Of a stretch of 10,257 nt of DNA, positions 1,709 through 6,522 are shown piece after piece (position 1 is the first letter of the stretch; each line of letters starts with the position of its first letter). A program made the position numbers and the translations under genes. Location of the stretch: IMG/VR virus record IMGVR_UViG_3300002854_000123, positions 1 to 10,257 of that record; one strand, given 5' to 3'. The notes beneath the pieces are model-generated. The model saw nothing but the letters and a program-made list of their open reading frames with translations, made no database searches and was not told the DNA's origin. Origin of the DNA: a virus (Duplodnaviria > Heunggongvirae > Uroviricota > Caudoviricetes).

Positions 1709-1724
1709 ATTGCCTGGAGAAAAT

Positions 1725-3011
1725 ATGCTTTATAACACCGGCACCATCGCCGTTAATGGAAATACAGCAACCGGCACCGGCACGAACTGGACGGCACCCG
1801 CCAGCCAGGTTCGCGCTGGCCAGACGATTATCGTGATGTCTAACCCGGTGCAGCTGTTCCAGATTTCATCCGTGAACAGCGCGACGTCTTTGACGGTTAC
1901 GCCAGCTGCTTCCCCGGCGCTGAGCGGCCAGAAGTATGGAATCCTGGTGTCAGACAATATCTCAGTCGACGGCCTGGCACAGGCCATGTCGCAGCTCATC
2001 AAAGAGTATGACGAGAACATCGGCGCGTGGGAGACGTTCGCCACTACCTCAGCAAACCAGAGCATCACGGTTACCATCAATGGCACCCCTGTTACGATCC
2101 CCGGCATCGGTAAACTGGCGCAGAAAGGGAGTAACGGTGCGCTGGCTGTTGCTGACGGCGGAACCGGAGCAACAAAGGCAGAAGACGCTCGCACAAACCT
2201 CGGTTTAGGAAGTAGTGCGTTGAAGAATTTGCAAAGCACAACCGAGGATAAAACGACTGGGGCTGTTTTGCAGGTCGGCTCCTTCGGTTTGGGTGCAGAG
2301 GCACCAGTTATTCCTGCCAATGATGCTAACCAAATTACTGGCTATAACGGTTTTGTTTCAGGTGCTGGGGCTCCTGGAACGAACTGGGTAAACGTATACG
2401 GCCCTATGCTCGTTATGAGGAGAATCAGTGCCGTTGCTCAGGTCCAGGTAAACGCTGTGGGTGGACTGGCATCACGCTACGGTCTGGTTACGGACATGAC
2501 CGTTAACAATGGCGGGGCGTGGTGCGTTCACTGGCATGACAGAAACACAACTGTGGACTCAAGCGGGTTCATAAAACGGGCTTCGCCTATCGTTAAGTTG
2601 TTTTCTGATGGAGGCTACGAAACAAATGATGAATCTGAGGGGTGCACAGTTCGCCGTATCGAAACAGGCCAATATCTTATAGAAGGATGTCATGGCCTGA
2701 ATGCAGAGGCTATTTGGGGCGGGGTTGATGGTGGTTTTGAGATCCCCTCAGACCGTAATAAACAGCCGCTGGTATGGCTGGATTATGAGGTAAATGCTGA
2801 TGGTTCGGTGTTGGTTAAAACGTATCATCGAGCACACCCCGAAGCGCCGACGTTCGCCAGGAATGAACTGCAGGGTATCAACGACGGCGACCCAATCGAC
2901 ATTCCCCGCGATCAGTTTGTGTCCGTGCGTGTCGAAATGCCTGGCGATTCTGTATACAACCAGAAACTCAGAGCCGTAGAGCTAATCCTTGCTACTGATG
3001 AAGGTGAATAA
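1725..3011 (+). CDS. Phage tail-fibre protein: N-terminal virion-attachment domain (about 1725-2201) fused to C-terminal cassette 1 (2202-3011)
   Basis: ATG at 1725 is preceded by GGAGA at 1715-1719 (the ORF-track start at 1710 is TTG). The N-terminus MLYNTGTIAVNGNTATGTGTNW is tail-fibre-like. Crossover site A is internal, at the NLGLGSSA hinge. The TAA stop at 3009-3011 lies inside crossover site B. Confidence 0.8.
   Translation: MLYNTGTIAVNGNTATGTGTNWTAPASQVRAGQTIIVMSNPVQLFQISSVNSATSLTVTPAASPALSGQKYGILVSDNISVDGLAQAMSQLIKEYDENIGAWETFATTSANQSITVTINGTPVTIPGIGKLAQKGSNGALAVADGGTGATKAEDARTNLGLGSSALKNLQSTTEDKTTGAVLQVGSFGLGAEAPVIPANDANQITGYNGFVSGAGAPGTNWVNVYGPMLVMRRISAVAQVQVNAVGGLASRYGLVTDMTVNNGGAWCVHWHDRNTTVDSSGFIKRASPIVKLFSDGGYETNDESEGCTVRRIETGQYLIEGCHGLNAEAIWGGVDGGFEIPSDRNKQPLVWLDYEVNADGSVLVKTYHRAHPEAPTFARNELQGINDGDPIDIPRDQFVSVRVEMPGDSVYNQKLRAVELILATDEGE
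2188..2213. other. Crossover site A (gix/hix/mix-like 26-bp site) inside the tail-fibre gene
   Basis: ctcgcacAAACC-TC-GGTTTaggaagt: inverted AAACC/GGTTT half-site cores around a central TC (2200-2201), as in Gin/Hin-family sites. Same orientation as site B, inverted relative to site C. Encodes N-L-G-L-G-S. Confidence 0.6.
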
Positions 3012-3028
3012 AGGTCGGTTTAGGAGAT
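3003..3028. other. Crossover site B (gix/mix-like), overlapping the tail-fibre stop codon
   Basis: ggtgaataaagg-TC-GGTTTaggagat. The right half-site matches sites A and C closely; the left half is degenerate. Central TC at 3015-3016. Confidence 0.65.
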
Positions 3029-3850
3029 AGCGTCACAGCCAACTTTGGAAGCCTCGAAATTGGAGCGAAGAAAGCCTCTTCTGCAAGCTTCGTTGATTTC
3101 CATTTTCTTGGCACTAACGACTATGACGCGCGAATCCTGTGCGGTGGTAATTCCAGTGGTGCCATGGGGAAAGGAGACTTTACATTTTACGCAGGGAGAT
3201 ACATTTTTATCGGCGATAGCTTTGAATTTCGTAATCCAATTACCTGCCAGAACAGCATAAGCGCATCAGCTAAAATCGCGACCAGTGCTGATATGGAATG
3301 CAAAACTAAAATTGCTGTTTTGGCCCCAGCTGACAATCAGAATGCCCACGTATGGTTCTATGGCACAGGTGGGGCATCCAGGGGGGTTATTTATTCCGGG
3401 CAGACAGGAATCATTCAGATCCGTCCTGACAACAATGATAATGGAGGCTCCAACGGATACTCTTTTGCGTTTGGGGCTGATGGTAAGTTCACCTGCGTCA
3501 CGATGAATCAGACTTCGGATGAACGAGTTAAATTCGACAAAGAACCCGTCAGTAACGCTCTGGAGAAGATCTGTTCACTGACGGGGTATACGTTTGGCAT
3601 TCAACTGACTGAATCGGAATCAATACGCAGCGCAGGTATCATCGCCCAGGAACTGGAGCGTGTTCTTCCTGTCGCGGTAAGTTCAGGCGGTACCGGAACA
3701 ACGCAGAATGGAGAAGAGATTAACGATCTCAAAACCGTGGACTACAGTGCGATGAGCGCCCTGTATGTTGAGGCCATGAAGGAGCTGGCCAACCGGGTAA
3801 AAAGCATTAAGAGTGAGCTTGCTGAACTCAAAGCCCGATCCGCGATATAG
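3017..3850 (+). CDS. Promoterless tail-fibre C-terminal cassette 2 with C-terminal intramolecular chaperone (peptidase S74-type) domain
   Basis: Frame is open from site B to TAG at 3848-3850, with no canonical start before the ATG at 3164. The cassette begins GLGDS in the same phase as site A. Contains SDERVK (from 3515) and GIIAQELERVLP, typical S74 autoproteolytic chaperone motifs, and ends in a coiled-coil-like tail. Confidence 0.65.
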   Translation, partial: GLGDSVTANFGSLEIGAKKASSASFVDFHFLGTNDYDARILCGGNSSGAMGKGDFTFYAGRYIFIGDSFEFRNPITCQNSISASAKIATSADMECKTKIAVLAPADNQNAHVWFYGTGGASRGVIYSGQTGIIQIRPDNNDNGGSNGYSFAFGADGKFTCVTMNQTSDERVKFDKEPVSNALEKICSLTGYTFGIQLTESESIRSAGIIAQELERVLPVAVSSGGTGTTQNGEEINDLKTVDYSAMSALYVEAMKELANRVKSIKSELAELKARSAI

Positions 3851-4064
3851 TGTATTAGCTCAGACTTGACCTGACAGTTTGATCTGGCAACAGACTATCA
3901 AAGCTGACCGTCTGCTTTGAGCGAGGAGAGGTAGTTCACTTTCGGGAAAACTCATCCACGTGCGATAGTCTCTAAATGAGAACAGGTCGTTAAGCTGGAT
4001 ACTTACACCCACCTCGGCGAAAGGCTGTACACTGATAACACTTATAGATGATTCTGAGTATTTT

Positions 4065-4847
4065 ATGATTTTATACAAATACATAGACAAAGCTTCATTA
4101 GGTCGGTTCTTCAAAGATGGATACATCTCCATAAAATTTACCCCGCACAGTGAGTTTAATGATCCTTTCGAAAGTTATGGATATGCACTTGATGATGCGT
4201 CAATTGAATCATTAACGATGAGGCATGAGATCAATAAAAACCTTGCCTGCTTATGTCTTTCAAAAAATCCACTCAACGTCTTGATGTGGTCACACTATGC
4301 TGAAAAGCATCAAGGATTTGTTGTAGCAATCGACATTGAGAAAGCAGGATACGATGATGAAGCAAAATGCCTGATTACAGCTCAGAAAGGTGATATTGAT
4401 TATTTAGGAAATAGAATAAAAAGCAAACTAAAAATCACGCAGGAAAATATCTATGATACTGATGTGATTAGTAAGCTATTGCTTACTAAATCATTGCATT
4501 GGAAATATGAAGAAGAAATCAGAATAATAAAAAAGACAGATTCATTACAGCAACAAGGTGCTGTTTTAATTGACAAAATATATGATCTTAATTCTATAGT
4601 CAGTATCTATATCGGGATTAACAACAGAGGAGTTGATGAAATCATTAGAAACAACAATGCATTAGAGACATTGATTTTAAACAAGACAGTACAGTTATAT
4701 CAGTGTGAATTTAAGAAAAGTACATGGGATCTCGACATAGAAGCTTATGAATACACCAAATACCCGCATGATATGCAGAGAATGGATGTATTTGATTCTG
4801 TCGCGAAGGTGTTGAGAGCAATGGAACGTAACCATATAGGCGATTGA
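4065..4847 (+). CDS. AT-rich cargo gene inside the invertible segment; DUF2971-like protein (260 aa), function unknown
   Basis: Clean ORF, visibly much more AT-rich than the flanking tail-fibre DNA. Motifs LYKY near the N-terminus, FNDPFE, LMWSHYAEKHQGF and WKYEEEIR match my recollection of the DUF2971 family; this needs an HMM check. Confidence 0.65.
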   Translation: MILYKYIDKASLGRFFKDGYISIKFTPHSEFNDPFESYGYALDDASIESLTMRHEINKNLACLCLSKNPLNVLMWSHYAEKHQGFVVAIDIEKAGYDDEAKCLITAQKGDIDYLGNRIKSKLKITQENIYDTDVISKLLLTKSLHWKYEEEIRIIKKTDSLQQQGAVLIDKIYDLNSIVSIYIGINNRGVDEIIRNNNALETLILNKTVQLYQCEFKKSTWDLDIEAYEYTKYPHDMQRMDVFDSVAKVLRAMERNHIGD

Positions 4848-4878
4848 GATTATTGATGGCGATTATCGTGTCAGAAAT

Positions 4879-4902
4879 GTCCGCTCCTGGCACAGAGCGG
4901 AC
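4879..4902 (-). terminator. Hairpin (8-bp stem), possible terminator between convergent cassette 3 and the DUF2971-like gene
   Basis: gtccgctc-ctggcaca-gagcggac; on the minus strand it is followed by a weak U-rich tract (auuucu). Lies about 70 nt downstream of the cassette 3 stop. Confidence 0.3.
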
Positions 4903-4969
4903 TGTCAGCTTAAGTTAAGCCCTGAGCAGTAACAGTGCCAAATCAAGTTTGAGCTAATACAGATATAGC

Positions 4970-5641
4970 TTACTGAGCTGAAACCTTAGTCGCAGCCTGT
5001 TCTTCCAAAACCCTGACGCGGATTGCCAGCGCTTTGATTGCTGCTAGCGCATCGAGCAAAATAGGGGTCTGATCAAGATGCAGTATGCCGCCTATTTCTT
5101 TCACGTATTCGGGATCAATCGTTTCAATCTGCTGTGATATTACCCCGCGTCGTGGGGTCTGCGTTTCATCGTCCTTAAAAGTGAAGTGTTTGAATTCCAT
5201 CCGGCAGATATTTAACAACGCCGCTTCCAGATCGAGGTCATCGCCAATGTTTTTCATTGTTCTGTCAGATACCGCTGAAGTCATGATCTCCTTCCACGGG
5301 CTCCAGGCATTGGTGTTGTAACCCCTGAAAAAAAATCGTCCAGCATCAGTTTGGCTTGGATATGGCAAACAAAACTGCGTTAGCGCTACGTCGGCAATAC
5401 GAACATAATTTTGAACATACCCATACCAACTTGAGATAGGTCCTGAGGTTGATTTCGACATATCCAAAAGTAAACGATAAGTTCCTGGCTCTGTAAGACT
5501 GTTGAAGTTTGTCCCATCAGGAGCAACTGCCGAGTCTGTTTTAAATACCCTGGCATCACCAGTAGGTAATCCAAATGCTCCCACTTGCATGACGTTCCCG
5601 GCTGCCGTTCCGACGTCCTTCGTAGCGCTACTTCCCAAACC
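4970..5641 (-). CDS. Promoterless tail-fibre C-terminal cassette 3 (inverted orientation) with C-terminal S74-type intramolecular chaperone domain
   Basis: Minus-strand frame is open from site C (stop at 5648-5650 just outside) to TAA at 4970-4972. Begins (N)VGLGSSATKDVG, homologous to the hinge NLGLGSSALK of the expressed gene. Contains SDRTMKNI and GVISQQIETIDPEYV motifs and a helical C-terminal tail. Confidence 0.65.
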   Translation of the reverse strand, partial: GLGSSATKDVGTAAGNVMQVGAFGLPTGDARVFKTDSAVAPDGTNFNSLTEPGTYRLLLDMSKSTSGPISSWYGYVQNYVRIADVALTQFCLPYPSQTDAGRFFFRGYNTNAWSPWKEIMTSAVSDRTMKNIGDDLDLEAALLNICRMEFKHFTFKDDETQTPRRGVISQQIETIDPEYVKEIGGILHLDQTPILLDALAAIKALAIRVRVLEEQAATKVSAQ

Positions 5642-5655
5642 GACGTTTTATAGAT
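5630..5655. other. Crossover site C (gix/mix-like), inverted relative to A and B, immediately upstream of the invertase gene
   Basis: Top strand acttcccAAACC-GA-CGTTTTatagat; reverse complement atctatAAAACG-TC-GGTTTgggaagt aligns with sites A and B. Central dinucleotide at 5642-5643. Confidence 0.65.
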
Positions 5656-5720
5656 TGCCACGAGGCGGCCTGGCCGATAACTTCATCTGATTTTTTTGCA
5701 GAATTTATTGGGTGAAAAAT

Positions 5721-6278
5721 ATGCAAATTGGCTATGTAAGGGTGTCAACAAATGACCAAAATACGGATCTTCAGCGGCAAGCACTCGAACGCGTAGGATG
5801 TGAACAGATTTTCGAAGAAAAAATGAGCGGAACAGTGGCGAACCGGCCAGCGTTGAAAAAGCTTCTTAAGGCGCTGAATGAGGGGGATACGCTGGTAGTC
5901 TGGAAGCTGGATCGCCTTGGGCGCAGCATGCGGAATCTGGTGCTGCTGGTGGACGAACTCCGGCAGCGCGGCATCCACTTTAAGAGCCTCACTGACAGCA
6001 TCGACACATCAAGTCCGATGGGACGCTTCATCTTTCATATTATGTCAGCCCTGGCGGAAATGGAGAGGGAGTTGATTGTGGAACGCACCCGGGCAGGCCT
6101 GGCTGCAGCTCGTGAGAAAGGGAGAATCGGCGGCAGGCGTCCGAAGCTCACCCTGGAGCAATGGGCTCAGGCAGGGCGGTTGATAGCGAACGGCGTAGAC
6201 AGGAAGCAGGTAGCGATAATTTATGACGTTGCAGTGTGTACGCTTTATAAAAAGTTTCCTGCAGGGATAAAGCTGTAA
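5721..6278 (+). CDS. Serine recombinase, DNA invertase of the Gin/Hin/Pin/Cin/Min family (185 aa)
   Basis: MQIGYVRVSTNDQ (catalytic Ser in VRVST), LVVWKLDRLGRS, SLTDSIDTSSPMGRF, MERELIVERT and a C-terminal HTH (KQVAIIYDVAVCTLYKK) are hallmark invertase motifs. ATG at 5721 is preferred over the GTG at 5712 used by the ORF track. Confidence 0.9.
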   Translation: MQIGYVRVSTNDQNTDLQRQALERVGCEQIFEEKMSGTVANRPALKKLLKALNEGDTLVVWKLDRLGRSMRNLVLLVDELRQRGIHFKSLTDSIDTSSPMGRFIFHIMSALAEMERELIVERTRAGLAAAREKGRIGGRRPKLTLEQWAQAGRLIANGVDRKQVAIIYDVAVCTLYKKFPAGIKL

Positions 6279-6384
6279 TGGTAAGGCAACTGAAGTATGC
6301 TCGACTGCCTTACTATGCTTAAAGCGCAACTTGGCGAACGGTCGGGAAATCTGAAACAAGTGGTTTACAGGCTCAGCAAACAAA

Positions 6385-6413
6385 GAACCCGGCTTTGCCG
6401 GGTTCTGTTTGTT
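6385..6413. terminator. Bidirectional rho-independent terminator between the invertase (+) and the minus-strand small-gene operon
   Basis: gaacccggc-ttt-gccgggttc (9-bp stem) followed by tgtttgtt on the plus strand and a T-rich tract on the minus strand. Confidence 0.5.
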
Positions 6414-6522
6414 AAGCTGCTTTCTTAACTGGTTTCTTCTTTGCTGCTCTCTCATTAATGTCATCAATGAGTCCACGCAGCCTATATGAGTTTAAAAGAA
6501 GGTTCTGGAGTGTTTTGTTCAT
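6412..6522 (-). CDS. Small ORF (36 aa, MNKTLQNLLLNSYRLRGLIDDINERAAKKKPVKKAA), basic C-terminus; hypothetical
   Basis: ATG at 6522 is preceded by AGGAG at a 9-nt spacing. It starts 25 nt downstream of the 125-aa gene's stop and ends at the terminator. Not in the ORF track because it is under 60 aa. Confidence 0.3.
   Translation of the reverse strand: MNKTLQNLLLNSYRLRGLIDDINERAAKKKPVKKAA

What the first reader, a model, noticed from the sequence alone, without database searches (positions are those of the whole stretch)
3017..5641. Both silent cassettes end in S74-type intramolecular chaperone domains
Cassette 2 contains ...NQT-SDERVK... and GIIAQELERVLP. Cassette 3 contains ...SAV-SDRTMKNI... 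and GVISQQIETIDPEYV. Each is followed by a helical tail. These match the auto-cleaving C-terminal chaperone domains of phage tail spikes and fibres (T5 pb1 and K1F endosialidase type), where the Ser of SD-x-R-x-K is the cleavage site. The receptor-binding parts N-terminal of the cleavage site are short, about 110-160 aa, and differ completely between the two cassettes, implying different receptors.
Basis: partly seen in the sequence, partly recalled or inferred. Interest (0 to 1): 0.5.

Follow-up and report, generated by a model that had tools for sequence, protein, structure and literature searches.

The report
Switchable phage tail-fibre tips with built-in chaperones
Two unexpressed spare tail-fibre tips in a lambda-like Enterobacter prophage each end in a self-cleaving folding domain (S74 type), so a DNA-flipping enzyme can swap tips without a separate helper gene; both parts are known kinds, so this is a tidy but ordinary example.

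Summary
Cassette 2 (3017-3850, +) and cassette 3 (4970-5641, -) both pass Pfam's Peptidase_S74 threshold (E 8.6e-11 and 1.8e-8). Both keep the Ser-x4-Lys dyad (SDERVK, SDRTMK), which is invariant across 39 and 23 aligned homologues. Both end in a predicted long helix. Their receptor-binding parts (166 and 124 aa) are unrelated.

They are true silent cassettes of a Gin-type multiple-inversion system:
- Three crossover sites (2195, 3010, 5633) match AAASSTCGGTTTRGGA, with none expected by chance.
- The invertase (5712-6278) is 76.5% identical to Mu Gin.
- The predicted fusions (436 and 382 aa) match the lengths of full-length database proteins that are 95-97% identical.
- dN/dS is about 0.1.
- Two near-isogenic E. 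coli genomes differ by exactly this inversion.
- A related Enterobacter phage (FRphi) was shown experimentally in 2025-26 to shuffle three fibre tips with gin.

Unlike Mu and P1, no cassette carries a tail-fibre assembly gene. The chaperone sits in cis in the S74 tips, while the currently expressed tip has a different end (Phage_tail_C_2). NCBI already names such proteins S74 peptidases. I found no paper that links the S74 domain to invertible cassettes. Cleavage itself is untested. Interest is low to moderate.

The parts
1725..3011 (+). Currently expressed side tail-fibre gene (428 aa from ATG 1725; the ORF listing extends it to TTG 1710). The constant N-terminal part is 1725-2201 (159 aa). 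Variable tip 1 is 2202-3008 and ends in a Phage_tail_C_2 domain, not S74.
   Evidence: PF25670, E 4.7e-60; exact 428-aa product on record. The consensus N-terminus of homologues starts MLYNTG.
2195..2210 (+). Crossover site A (AAACC-TC-GGTTTAGGA), inside the fibre gene at ...TNLGLGSS. It marks the boundary between the constant and variable parts.
   Evidence: 13-nt core identical to Mu gix; 3 matches, 0 expected by chance.
3010..3025 (+). Crossover site B (AAAGG-TC-GGTTTAGGA), in direct orientation to A. It overlaps the stop codon of tip 1 and opens cassette 2.
   Evidence: The same AAAGG internal site is seen in L002-L005, L010, L013 and L019.
3017..3850 (+). Silent cassette 2: 277 codons from GLG plus the stop. 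It has no fibre N-terminus of its own. The receptor-binding part is 3017-3514.
   Evidence: It is 87.7% nt identical to the expressed tip of E. coli CX05. 436-aa fusions exist in Enterobacter at 96% identity. dN/dS is 0.12.
3515..3847 (+). S74 intramolecular chaperone domain of cassette 2 (111 aa). Ser codon 3515-3517, Lys codon 3530-3532, C-terminal helix.
3851..3931 (.). Conserved 3' flank of cassette 2. It is the left arm of an imperfect inverted repeat that bounds the cargo slot.
   Evidence: (I1).
4065..4847 (+). Cargo gene inside the invertible segment (cargo stretch about 3932-4875). It is a DUF2971 protein with low G+C (32-35%) and is not part of the fibre.
   Evidence: PF11185; PADLOC PDC-S31, E 1.8e-26.
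4876..4969 (.). Conserved 3' flank of cassette 3. It is the right arm of the imperfect inverted repeat.
4970..5641 (-). Silent cassette 3: 223 codons from GLG plus the stop, in inverted orientation. The receptor-binding part is 5270-5641.
   Evidence: 382-aa fusions exist in the Enterobacter cloacae complex at 95-97% identity. It is expressed in E. cloacae L005. dN/dS is 0.10.
4973..5269 (-). S74 intramolecular chaperone domain of cassette 3 (99 aa). Ser codon 5267-5269, Lys codon 5252-5254, C-terminal helix.
5633..5648 (-). Crossover site C (AAACG-TC-GGTTTGGGA on the minus strand), inverted relative to A and B, 64 nt upstream of the invertase gene.
5712..6278 (+). Gin/Din-family serine DNA invertase (188 aa).
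   Evidence: Resolvase + HTH_7; 76.5% identical to Mu Gin, 98% to phage LLS 'Fin'; phrog_125, DNA invertase.

Best explanation
The window holds the right end of a lambda-like prophage, probably of the Enterobacter cloacae complex, inserted next to tRNA-Pro and yejM. Its side tail-fibre gene is a three-tip multiple-inversion system. A constant 159-residue N-terminal part is joined at the sequence NL|GLG to one of three alternative C-terminal tips. A Gin-family serine invertase (5712-6278) recombines three 26-bp-type sites. Sites A and B are direct; site C is inverted. In the present state tip 1 (Phage_tail_C_2 type) is expressed. A x C inversion would fuse cassette 3 to the constant part and give a 382-aa protein. 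A further inversion between the constant-part site and B would fuse cassette 2 and give a 436-aa protein. Each silent cassette is a short receptor-binding module followed by an S74-type intramolecular chaperone. After translation the chaperone is expected to drive trimer folding. It would then cut itself off at the Ser of T|SDERVK (cassette 2) or V|SDRTMK (cassette 3), using the Lys five residues later. That would leave mature fibres of about 325 and 283 residues. Because the chaperone travels in cis, no tail-fibre assembly gene is needed in the cassettes, and none is present. Shown here: the domains, the dyad, the sites, the frames, the existence of both fusions in other genomes, purifying selection, and inversion in relatives. 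Inferred: inversion in this very element, Fis/enhancer dependence, autocleavage, and different receptors.
For: - S74 hits lie above Pfam's threshold in both cassettes.
- The Ser-x4-Lys dyad and the adjacent Asp are invariant.
- Ser aligns to Ser in solved chaperone-bearing fibres: 6F45 and 8HQZ_d.
- The cassette 3 model's top fold matches are the MyRF ICA domain 7DC3 (E 6e-4), then weakly 3GW6 and 3GUD.
- Three sites match the pattern, with 0 expected by chance. Their core is identical to Mu gix, and the invertase is 76.5% identical to Gin.
- The predicted fusion lengths of 436 and 382 aa equal those of database homologues that carry the same N-terminus.
- E. coli CX05 and CX15 differ only by an exact inversion between the outer sites. 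CX15 has the same layout as the window.
- E. cloacae L005 carries the same C1-siteB-cassette 2 unit, with cassette 3 expressed.
- dN/dS is about 0.1 in both halves of both cassettes.
- In a survey of genome loci with this invertase, most of the roughly 19 loci (this window included) that hold both the constant part or its crossover site and the invertase carry 2-4 cassettes, and most of those have at least one S74 tip.
- Published experiment on the related Enterobacter phage FRphi: three tip isoforms seen in long reads, locked by deleting gin, one isoform using FhuA (PMC13418256). Loci L030 and L034 have this invertase with a flagellin gene downstream, as in FRphi.
Against: - Only one orientation is seen in this window, so inversion here is not observed.
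- The cassette 2 structure model is unusable (mean pLDDT 36). The cassette 3 model is moderate (60.6), and its matches to phage chaperone structures are weak.
- No trimer model could be made.
- The upstream 'Arg sensor' and triple beta-helix that trigger cleavage in K1F and T5 were not identified.
- The short tips (124-166 aa) may lack a canonical beta-helix.
- LLS gp23 has Cys in place of the Ser, so the chemistry may vary within this family.
- I could not confirm that FRphi's own cassettes carry S74 domains.
Confidence: 0.85

Rival explanations
1. The S74-like domains act only as C-terminal trimerisation or folding modules that stay on the mature fibre. There would be no autocleavage, so the distal end of the fibre would be the helical bundle and not the short tip.
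For: Cleavage was not tested. LLS gp23 replaces the nucleophile Ser with Cys. The upstream sensor residues of K1F and T5 (PMC4690869) were not located. The tips are unusually short.
Against: Ser, Asp and Lys are invariant in both families despite 40-50% overall divergence. Such conservation is expected for catalytic residues. Every characterised member cited in PMC4690869 (K1F, T5, phi29/GA-1) and MyRF cleaves.
Confidence: 0.08
2. Cassette 2 is stranded. Site B lies in direct repeat with site A and its left half differs (AAAGG), so B may be inactive and only the A x C flip would operate, giving a two-state switch.
For: The only inversion seen directly in genome pairs is between the outer sites. 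B differs from A at 4 of 18 positions.
Against: The AAAGG-TC-GGTTT internal site is conserved in seven other loci from several genera. Cassette 2 homologues are commonly fused to the constant part as 436-aa proteins, which requires recombination at such a site. All three isoforms were seen in FRphi at 50/25/25%. Cassette 2 is under purifying selection. After an A x C flip, B becomes inverted relative to the constant-part site, so it is reachable in two steps.
Confidence: 0.05
3. The two cassettes are decaying remnants of former tail-fibre genes left by recombination and are not used.
For: Neither has its own start at the GLG boundary. Gene callers report only truncated ORFs of 228 aa and 104 aa.
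Against: The reading frames are open from the crossover site to the stop. dN/dS is about 0.1. The frame matches the constant part exactly at the crossover. Near-identical sequences are expressed as fusions in other genomes.
Confidence: 0.02

Closest known systems
Phage Mu G segment / P1 C segment / e14 P segment (Gin, Cin, Pin; Din family of serine invertases)
   Same: The invertase is 76.5% identical to Gin. The crossover-site core AAACCTCGGTTTA is identical to gix. The site lies inside the fibre gene, about 160-170 codons from the start, and splits a constant N-terminus from variable C-termini. The invertase gene lies directly beside the segment.
   Different: In Mu each half of the segment carries a fibre tip plus its own assembly-chaperone gene (S-U and S'-U'). 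Here no cassette has such a gene, and two of the three tips carry the chaperone in cis as an S74 domain. There are three cassettes and three sites instead of two. The host phage is a lambda-like siphovirus, not a myovirus.
Tail-fibre 'shufflon' of Enterobacter phage FRphi (Walker, Richard et al., Nat Microbiol 2026, PMC13418256), and the predicted switch of lambdoid phage LLS (PMC12315714)
   Same: Both are lambda-like Enterobacter or E. coli siphoviruses with one fibre N-terminus, two to three alternative C-termini (up to six in relatives) and a gin-like gene downstream. The LLS 'Fin' invertase is 98% identical to the one here. FRphi-like loci with a flagellin gene downstream (L030, L034) carry the same invertase and sites.
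   Different: Neither paper mentions S74 or intramolecular chaperone domains. This prophage has no fliC-tldR module, and it has a DUF2971 cargo gene between the cassettes.
C-terminal intramolecular chaperone domains (Peptidase_S74): K1F endosialidase, T5 pb1, S16 gp37, GA-1/phi29 appendage, MyRF ICA
   Same: The Pfam family is the same. The domain is C-terminal. The Ser-x4-Lys dyad sits at the domain start. A mixed alpha/beta part is followed by a long helix.
   Different: The known examples sit at the end of a single fixed gene. Here they sit at the ends of promoterless, interchangeable cassettes. The domains are shorter (99-111 aa, against 133 aa in T5 pb1).
Min multiple-inversion system of plasmid p15B (from memory, not checked here)
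   Same: A Din-family invertase with more than two crossover sites reassorts several fibre C-termini.
   Different: As I recall, it has six sites and its cassettes come with Tfa-type chaperone genes. I made no sequence comparison.

Membership tests
Peptidase_S74 / C-terminal intramolecular chaperone domain | Significant match to the family profile (PF13884) above the curated cut-off | tested here: met
   42.4 and 35.0 bits against a cut-off of 22, with nearly full profile coverage in both cassettes.
Peptidase_S74 / C-terminal intramolecular chaperone domain | Nucleophile Ser at the domain boundary with a Lys five residues downstream (T5 Ser1264/Lys1269, per PMC4690869) | tested here: met
   SDERVK and SDRTMK. 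S, D and K are invariant in A1 and A2. Ser aligns to Ser of 6F45 and 8HQZ_d.
Peptidase_S74 / C-terminal intramolecular chaperone domain | Located at the extreme C-terminus of a fibre or spike, ending in a coiled-coil helix | tested here: met
   The domains run to the stop codons. Predicted helices are H244-277 and H195-224. PHROG fibre profiles are matched at their very ends.
Peptidase_S74 / C-terminal intramolecular chaperone domain | Fold match to solved chaperone domains | tested here: inconclusive
   The cassette 3 model matches MyRF ICA 7DC3 (E 6e-4, probability 1.00) but matches 3GW6 and 3GUD only at E 0.2-0.4. The cassette 2 model is too poor to search (pLDDT 36).
Peptidase_S74 / C-terminal intramolecular chaperone domain | Trimerisation-dependent autocleavage and release of the domain | not testable with these tools
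   This needs protein expression, or mass spectrometry of virions.
Din-family (Gin/Cin/Pin/Hin) invertible tail-fibre segment | Small serine recombinase with a resolvase catalytic domain and C-terminal HTH, closely related to Gin | tested here: met
   (76.5% identity to Mu Gin over 179 aa).
Din-family (Gin/Cin/Pin/Hin) invertible tail-fibre segment | gix-like crossover sites, at least one pair inverted, placed in frame at the constant/variable boundary of the fibre gene | tested here: met
   All three sites encode GLG in the cassette frame.
Din-family (Gin/Cin/Pin/Hin) invertible tail-fibre segment | Segment actually found in both orientations | tested here: inconclusive
   Not observable in this single assembly. 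It is shown for relatives: E. coli CX05 vs CX15, window vs E. cloacae L005, and FRphi experimentally.
Din-family (Gin/Cin/Pin/Hin) invertible tail-fibre segment | Fis-bound recombinational enhancer in the 5' part of the invertase gene | not tested
   The 5' coding region aligns well with gin. However, coding constraint cannot be separated from enhancer conservation.
Din-family (Gin/Cin/Pin/Hin) invertible tail-fibre segment | Each alternative tip accompanied by its own tail-fibre assembly (Tfa/U) gene, as in Mu and P1. This is typical of the classic members but does not define the recombination system. | tested here: not met
   The only ORFs in 2195-5648 with support are the three tips and DUF2971. 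In relatives, cassettes abut within about 40 bp.

The most novel reading that the evidence does not exclude
Carrying the chaperone in cis is what lets these cassettes behave as fully autonomous plug-in units. That would explain why this lambdoid family freely mixes 2-6 tips of unrelated folds behind one N-terminus. In addition, the junction between convergent cassettes has become a conserved cargo slot, flanked by inverted repeats, that carries different candidate anti-phage genes which flip together with the fibre tips.
Probability: 0.35. Interest if true: 0.45.

Novelty: new member of a known kind. Interest (0 to 1): 0.3.

Why it matters
It shows a second solution to a design problem of switchable phage fibres. 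Each alternative tip needs its matching folding helper. Mu and P1 solve this by flipping a helper gene together with the tip. This lambdoid family fuses a self-removing helper to the tip. This is useful in practice. Such cassettes are compact and self-sufficient receptor-binding modules of about 220-280 codons, and they could be swapped into engineered phages or tailocins. Genome annotation also routinely mis-calls them as truncated ORFs. Conceptually the gain is modest, because S74 domains, Gin-type inversion and even this family's three-tip shuffling are already described.

Tried and rejected
- **Structure of cassette 2:** the AlphaFold2 model from a 23-sequence, low-diversity alignment had mean pLDDT 36 and could not be used for a fold search.
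- **NCBIfam:** there were no hits for either cassette, so I could not reproduce the 'pyocin knob domain' in NCBI's protein names.
- **Promoter and terminator scan of 2900-5750:** counts were not above the shuffled controls, so it says nothing about cargo or cassette expression.
- **Exact-product look-up of the 433-aa TTG-start ORF:** it failed. The ATG-1725 start (428 aa) is the one on record.
- **Literature searches** combining S74 or intramolecular chaperone with invertase or inversion found no paper that makes the link. The library is limited to open-access papers and bioRxiv.
- **Pseudogene idea:** rejected on dN/dS and the existence of the fusions.
- **IR 3851-3876/4936-4961 as a fourth recombination site:** considered and rejected. 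It does not resemble the crossover sites. It is the start of conserved 3' flanks shared with another genome around a different cargo.
Full report
**Setting**

The window is the right end of a lambda-like prophage. It contains, in order:
- the C-terminal tip domain of a J-type central fibre (128-697, Phage_Tail_Tip);
- a DUF6453 protein (639-1664);
- a side tail-fibre gene;
- two further fibre-tip reading frames with a small gene between them;
- a serine recombinase;
- a few small genes, including a DinI homologue;
- tRNA-Pro(ggg) at 8293-8369 and the host gene yejM.

The exact 428-aa fibre protein is on record on a 103,888-bp contig of JGI metagenome 3300002855. That contig carries lambda-type tail genes upstream: tape measure, M, L, K, I and J. 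The nearest protein relatives are from the Enterobacter cloacae complex.

**The observation**

Both peptide strings quoted for each cassette are present in the stated frames.

Cassette 2 is open from 3008, shares the motif GLG from 3017, and stops at 3848-3850. Cassette 3 lies on the minus strand from 5641 (GLG) to its stop at 4970-4972.

Pfam's Peptidase_S74 model scores 42.4 bits (E 8.6e-11) on cassette 2 and 35.0 bits (E 1.8e-8) on cassette 3. The curated cut-off is 22 bits, and the match covers essentially the whole 58-position profile.

The currently expressed tip (2202-3008) has no S74 domain. It carries a Phage_tail_C_2 domain instead (E 4.7e-60).

**The catalytic dyad**

In T5 pb1 the chain is cut between Thr1263 and Ser1264, and Lys1269 activates the Ser. 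The same residues were proposed for K1F endosialidase (PMC4690869).

Cassette 2 reads NQT|SDERVK and cassette 3 reads SAV|SDRTMK, so the spacing is the same.
- Among 120 listed homologues of cassette 3, 119 have S-D-x3-K. The exception is a 125-residue fragment.
- All 120 listed homologues of cassette 2 have it.
- In alignment A1 (39 sequences, mean column identity 48%), S127, D128 and K132 are invariant.
- In alignment A2, S168, D169 and K173 are invariant.
- A sequence search against solved structures aligns cassette 2 to the chaperone-bearing end of S16 gp37 (6F45, E 1.2e-9), with SDERVK opposite SDRRIK.
- The cassette 3 family profile aligns to an L-shaped tail fibre (8HQZ_d, domain E 8.7e-12), Ser to Ser.
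- Both cassettes also hit the MyRF ICA domain.

**Structure**

Monomer AlphaFold2 models were of limited use.

Cassette 2 reached a mean pLDDT of only 36. Only the last helix (about 250-278) was confident.

Cassette 3 reached 60.6. Its S74 part scored 61-89 and showed helix-strand-strand-helix-hairpin-long-helix. Foldseek placed MyRF ICA (7DC3) first (E 6e-4, probability 1.00). The K1F and GA-1 chaperones (3GW6, 3GUD) followed at non-significant E-values.

So the fold evidence is consistent but weak. The case rests on sequence.

**Are the cassettes really 'silent cassettes'?**

Yes. The evidence is as follows.
- Three copies of AAASSTCGGTTTRGGA occur at 2195 (+), 3010 (+) and 5633 (-). None is expected in shuffled sequence.
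- Their core AAACCTCGGTTTA is identical to the gix sites of phage Mu.
- The recombinase at 5712-6278 is 76.5% identical to Mu Gin and 98% identical to the 'Fin' invertase of lambdoid phage LLS.
- All three sites encode GLG in the frame of what follows.
- The constant part is 159 residues. Fusion at the crossover gives 159 + 277 = 436 aa with cassette 2, and 159 + 223 = 382 aa with cassette 3.
- These are exactly the lengths of the most similar database proteins, which begin with the same N-terminus (MLYNTGTIA...ARTNLGLG): 436 aa at 96% identity and 382 aa at 95-97% identity.
- Stand-alone ORFs of about 220-290 aa are also common in both hit lists. That is as expected if cassettes are found in either state.

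**Inversion in relatives**

E. coli strains CX05 and CX15 are near-isogenic, with the same coordinates and 99.8% identity. They differ by an exact inversion of 2,325 bp, with 27-bp overlaps at the two outer sites.
- CX05 expresses a tip that is 87.7% identical at the DNA level to cassette 2 of the window.
- CX15 has the window's layout: a Phage_tail_C_2 tip expressed, a middle cassette in direct orientation, and an outer cassette inverted.

E. cloacae CP085080 (L005) carries the same unit 'tip 1 - site B - cassette 2', but inverted, with cassette 3 fused to the constant part. That is the state expected after an A x C flip of the window.

From the present state, cassette 3 is one inversion away and cassette 2 is two inversions away.

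dN/dS against the expressed copies is 0.12 for cassette 2 and 0.10 for cassette 3. It is similar in the receptor-binding and chaperone halves, which rules out decay.

**Distribution**

A scan of one genome per species with the invertase as query returned 36 loci. They came from Enterobacter, Citrobacter, Pseudocitrobacter, Buttiauxella, Klebsiella, Cedecea and others.

I mapped the constant part, tip types, S74 domains and sites on all loci. The results:
- There are two to four cassettes per locus, mixing S74-ended and Phage_tail_C_2-ended tips.
- Internal sites always have the AAAGG left half.
- Neighbouring cassettes abut within tens of bases, so there is no room for an assembly-chaperone gene.

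In Mu, by contrast, each half of the G segment carries a tip and its own assembly gene.

**What is already known**

The LLS paper predicts tip switching from two opposed fibre genes and an invertase (PMC12315714).

Walker, Richard et al. showed the following for the Enterobacter sp. BIDMC93 prophage FRphi (PMC13418256):
- three C-terminal isoforms coexist, at about 50/25/25% of long reads;
- deleting gin locks the state;
- only one isoform infects the test host, via FhuA;
- related loci have up to six paralogues.

Two loci in my survey (L030, L034) have a flagellin gene just downstream of this invertase, as FRphi does. The experimental system therefore very probably belongs to the same family, but I could not obtain FRphi's own sequence.

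Neither paper mentions S74 or chaperones. No paper in the searchable library combines those terms with invertase.

NCBI's pipeline already names the homologues 'tail fiber domain-containing protein' or 'pyocin knob domain-containing S74 family peptidase'. A systematic survey lists 'tail fiber domain-containing protein' among the products enriched at programmed inversions (PMC9881135).

**Verdict**

The thing is a new, well-formed member of two known kinds at once: Gin-type invertible fibre segments and S74 intramolecular chaperones.

The combination is visible in databases but apparently not discussed. Its one instructive feature is that a cis chaperone replaces the Tfa/U gene of the classic systems.

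Autocleavage, receptor differences and inversion in this particular element remain inferences.

Noticed in passing
window 3851-4969 (cargo about 3932-4875; gene 4065-4847): A low-G+C (32-35%) DUF2971 gene sits between the two convergent cassettes, inside the invertible segment. It matches the PADLOC candidate defence family PDC-S31 (E 1.8e-26). The slot is bounded by imperfect inverted repeats of about 80-94 nt that start right after each cassette's stop codon. E. cloacae L005 (7243-9939) has the same flanks (88-92% identity) around a different cargo: a 309-aa plus 486-aa pair matching PDC-M62 and Septu-like PtuB/PtuA. This looks like a cargo or defence hotspot inside a flipping segment.
   Followed up: partly
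L044 (E. coli RM14723) 4541-5326: The closest E. coli homologues of the DUF2971 gene (78% nt identity, listed for many genomes) lie in a different place. In the one genome inspected, the gene sits in a P2-like prophage between the ogr gene and a tail gene annotated as VgrG/Pvc8 family. This fits a mobile accessory gene that moves between prophage hotspots.
   Followed up: partly
L001 (phage LLS) gp23, 3867-4940 (-): The S74 domain of LLS gp23 has Cys in place of the nucleophile Ser (NCDITLK), while Asp and Lys are kept. It may be a Cys-nucleophile variant of the chaperone or a non-cleaving one.
   Followed up: no
L003 (E. coli CX05) 2002-2017 versus L004 (CX15) 2002-2017: The left crossover site of CX05 (and apparently CX07 and CX21) has a central dinucleotide of TT, while its partner site has TC. 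CX15 has TC at both. A core mismatch is expected to block productive Gin-type recombination, so CX05 may be locked in its present state.
   Followed up: no
window 1725-2201 (constant part, residues 3-100): The constant N-terminus is homologous to the N-terminal domain of solved phage depolymerases (7LZJ, 7VYV; E about 1e-13) and, more weakly, to the chain in PDB entry 23gd named 'Distal tail protein gp20'. By inference this may be the particle-attachment domain. The GGTGA..ARxNLGLG hinge at the crossover also occurs in the SU10 tail fibre (7Z47) and in R2 pyocin fibres (6CT8, 6CL6).
   Followed up: no
L019 (Pseudocitrobacter vendiensis) 4084-8552: This locus has four cassettes (two S74-ended, two Phage_tail_C_2-ended) and four crossover sites (one at the constant part, two internal, one next to the invertase) behind one constant part. 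It is the most complex arrangement in the survey.
   Followed up: no
L005 (E. cloacae CP085080) 11935-12487: The invertase reading frame is split into two pieces (hits at 11935-12111 and 12104-12487), and no gene was called there. The invertase may be frameshifted, which would freeze this prophage with cassette 3 expressed.
   Followed up: no
window 1710-1724 and L043 gene calls: Mechanical ORF listing starts the fibre at TTG 1710, but homologues and the database record start at ATG 1725. In the source contig, gene callers report cassette 2 as a 228-aa ORF and cassette 3 as only 104 aa. Silent cassettes are therefore systematically mis-annotated.
   Followed up: yes
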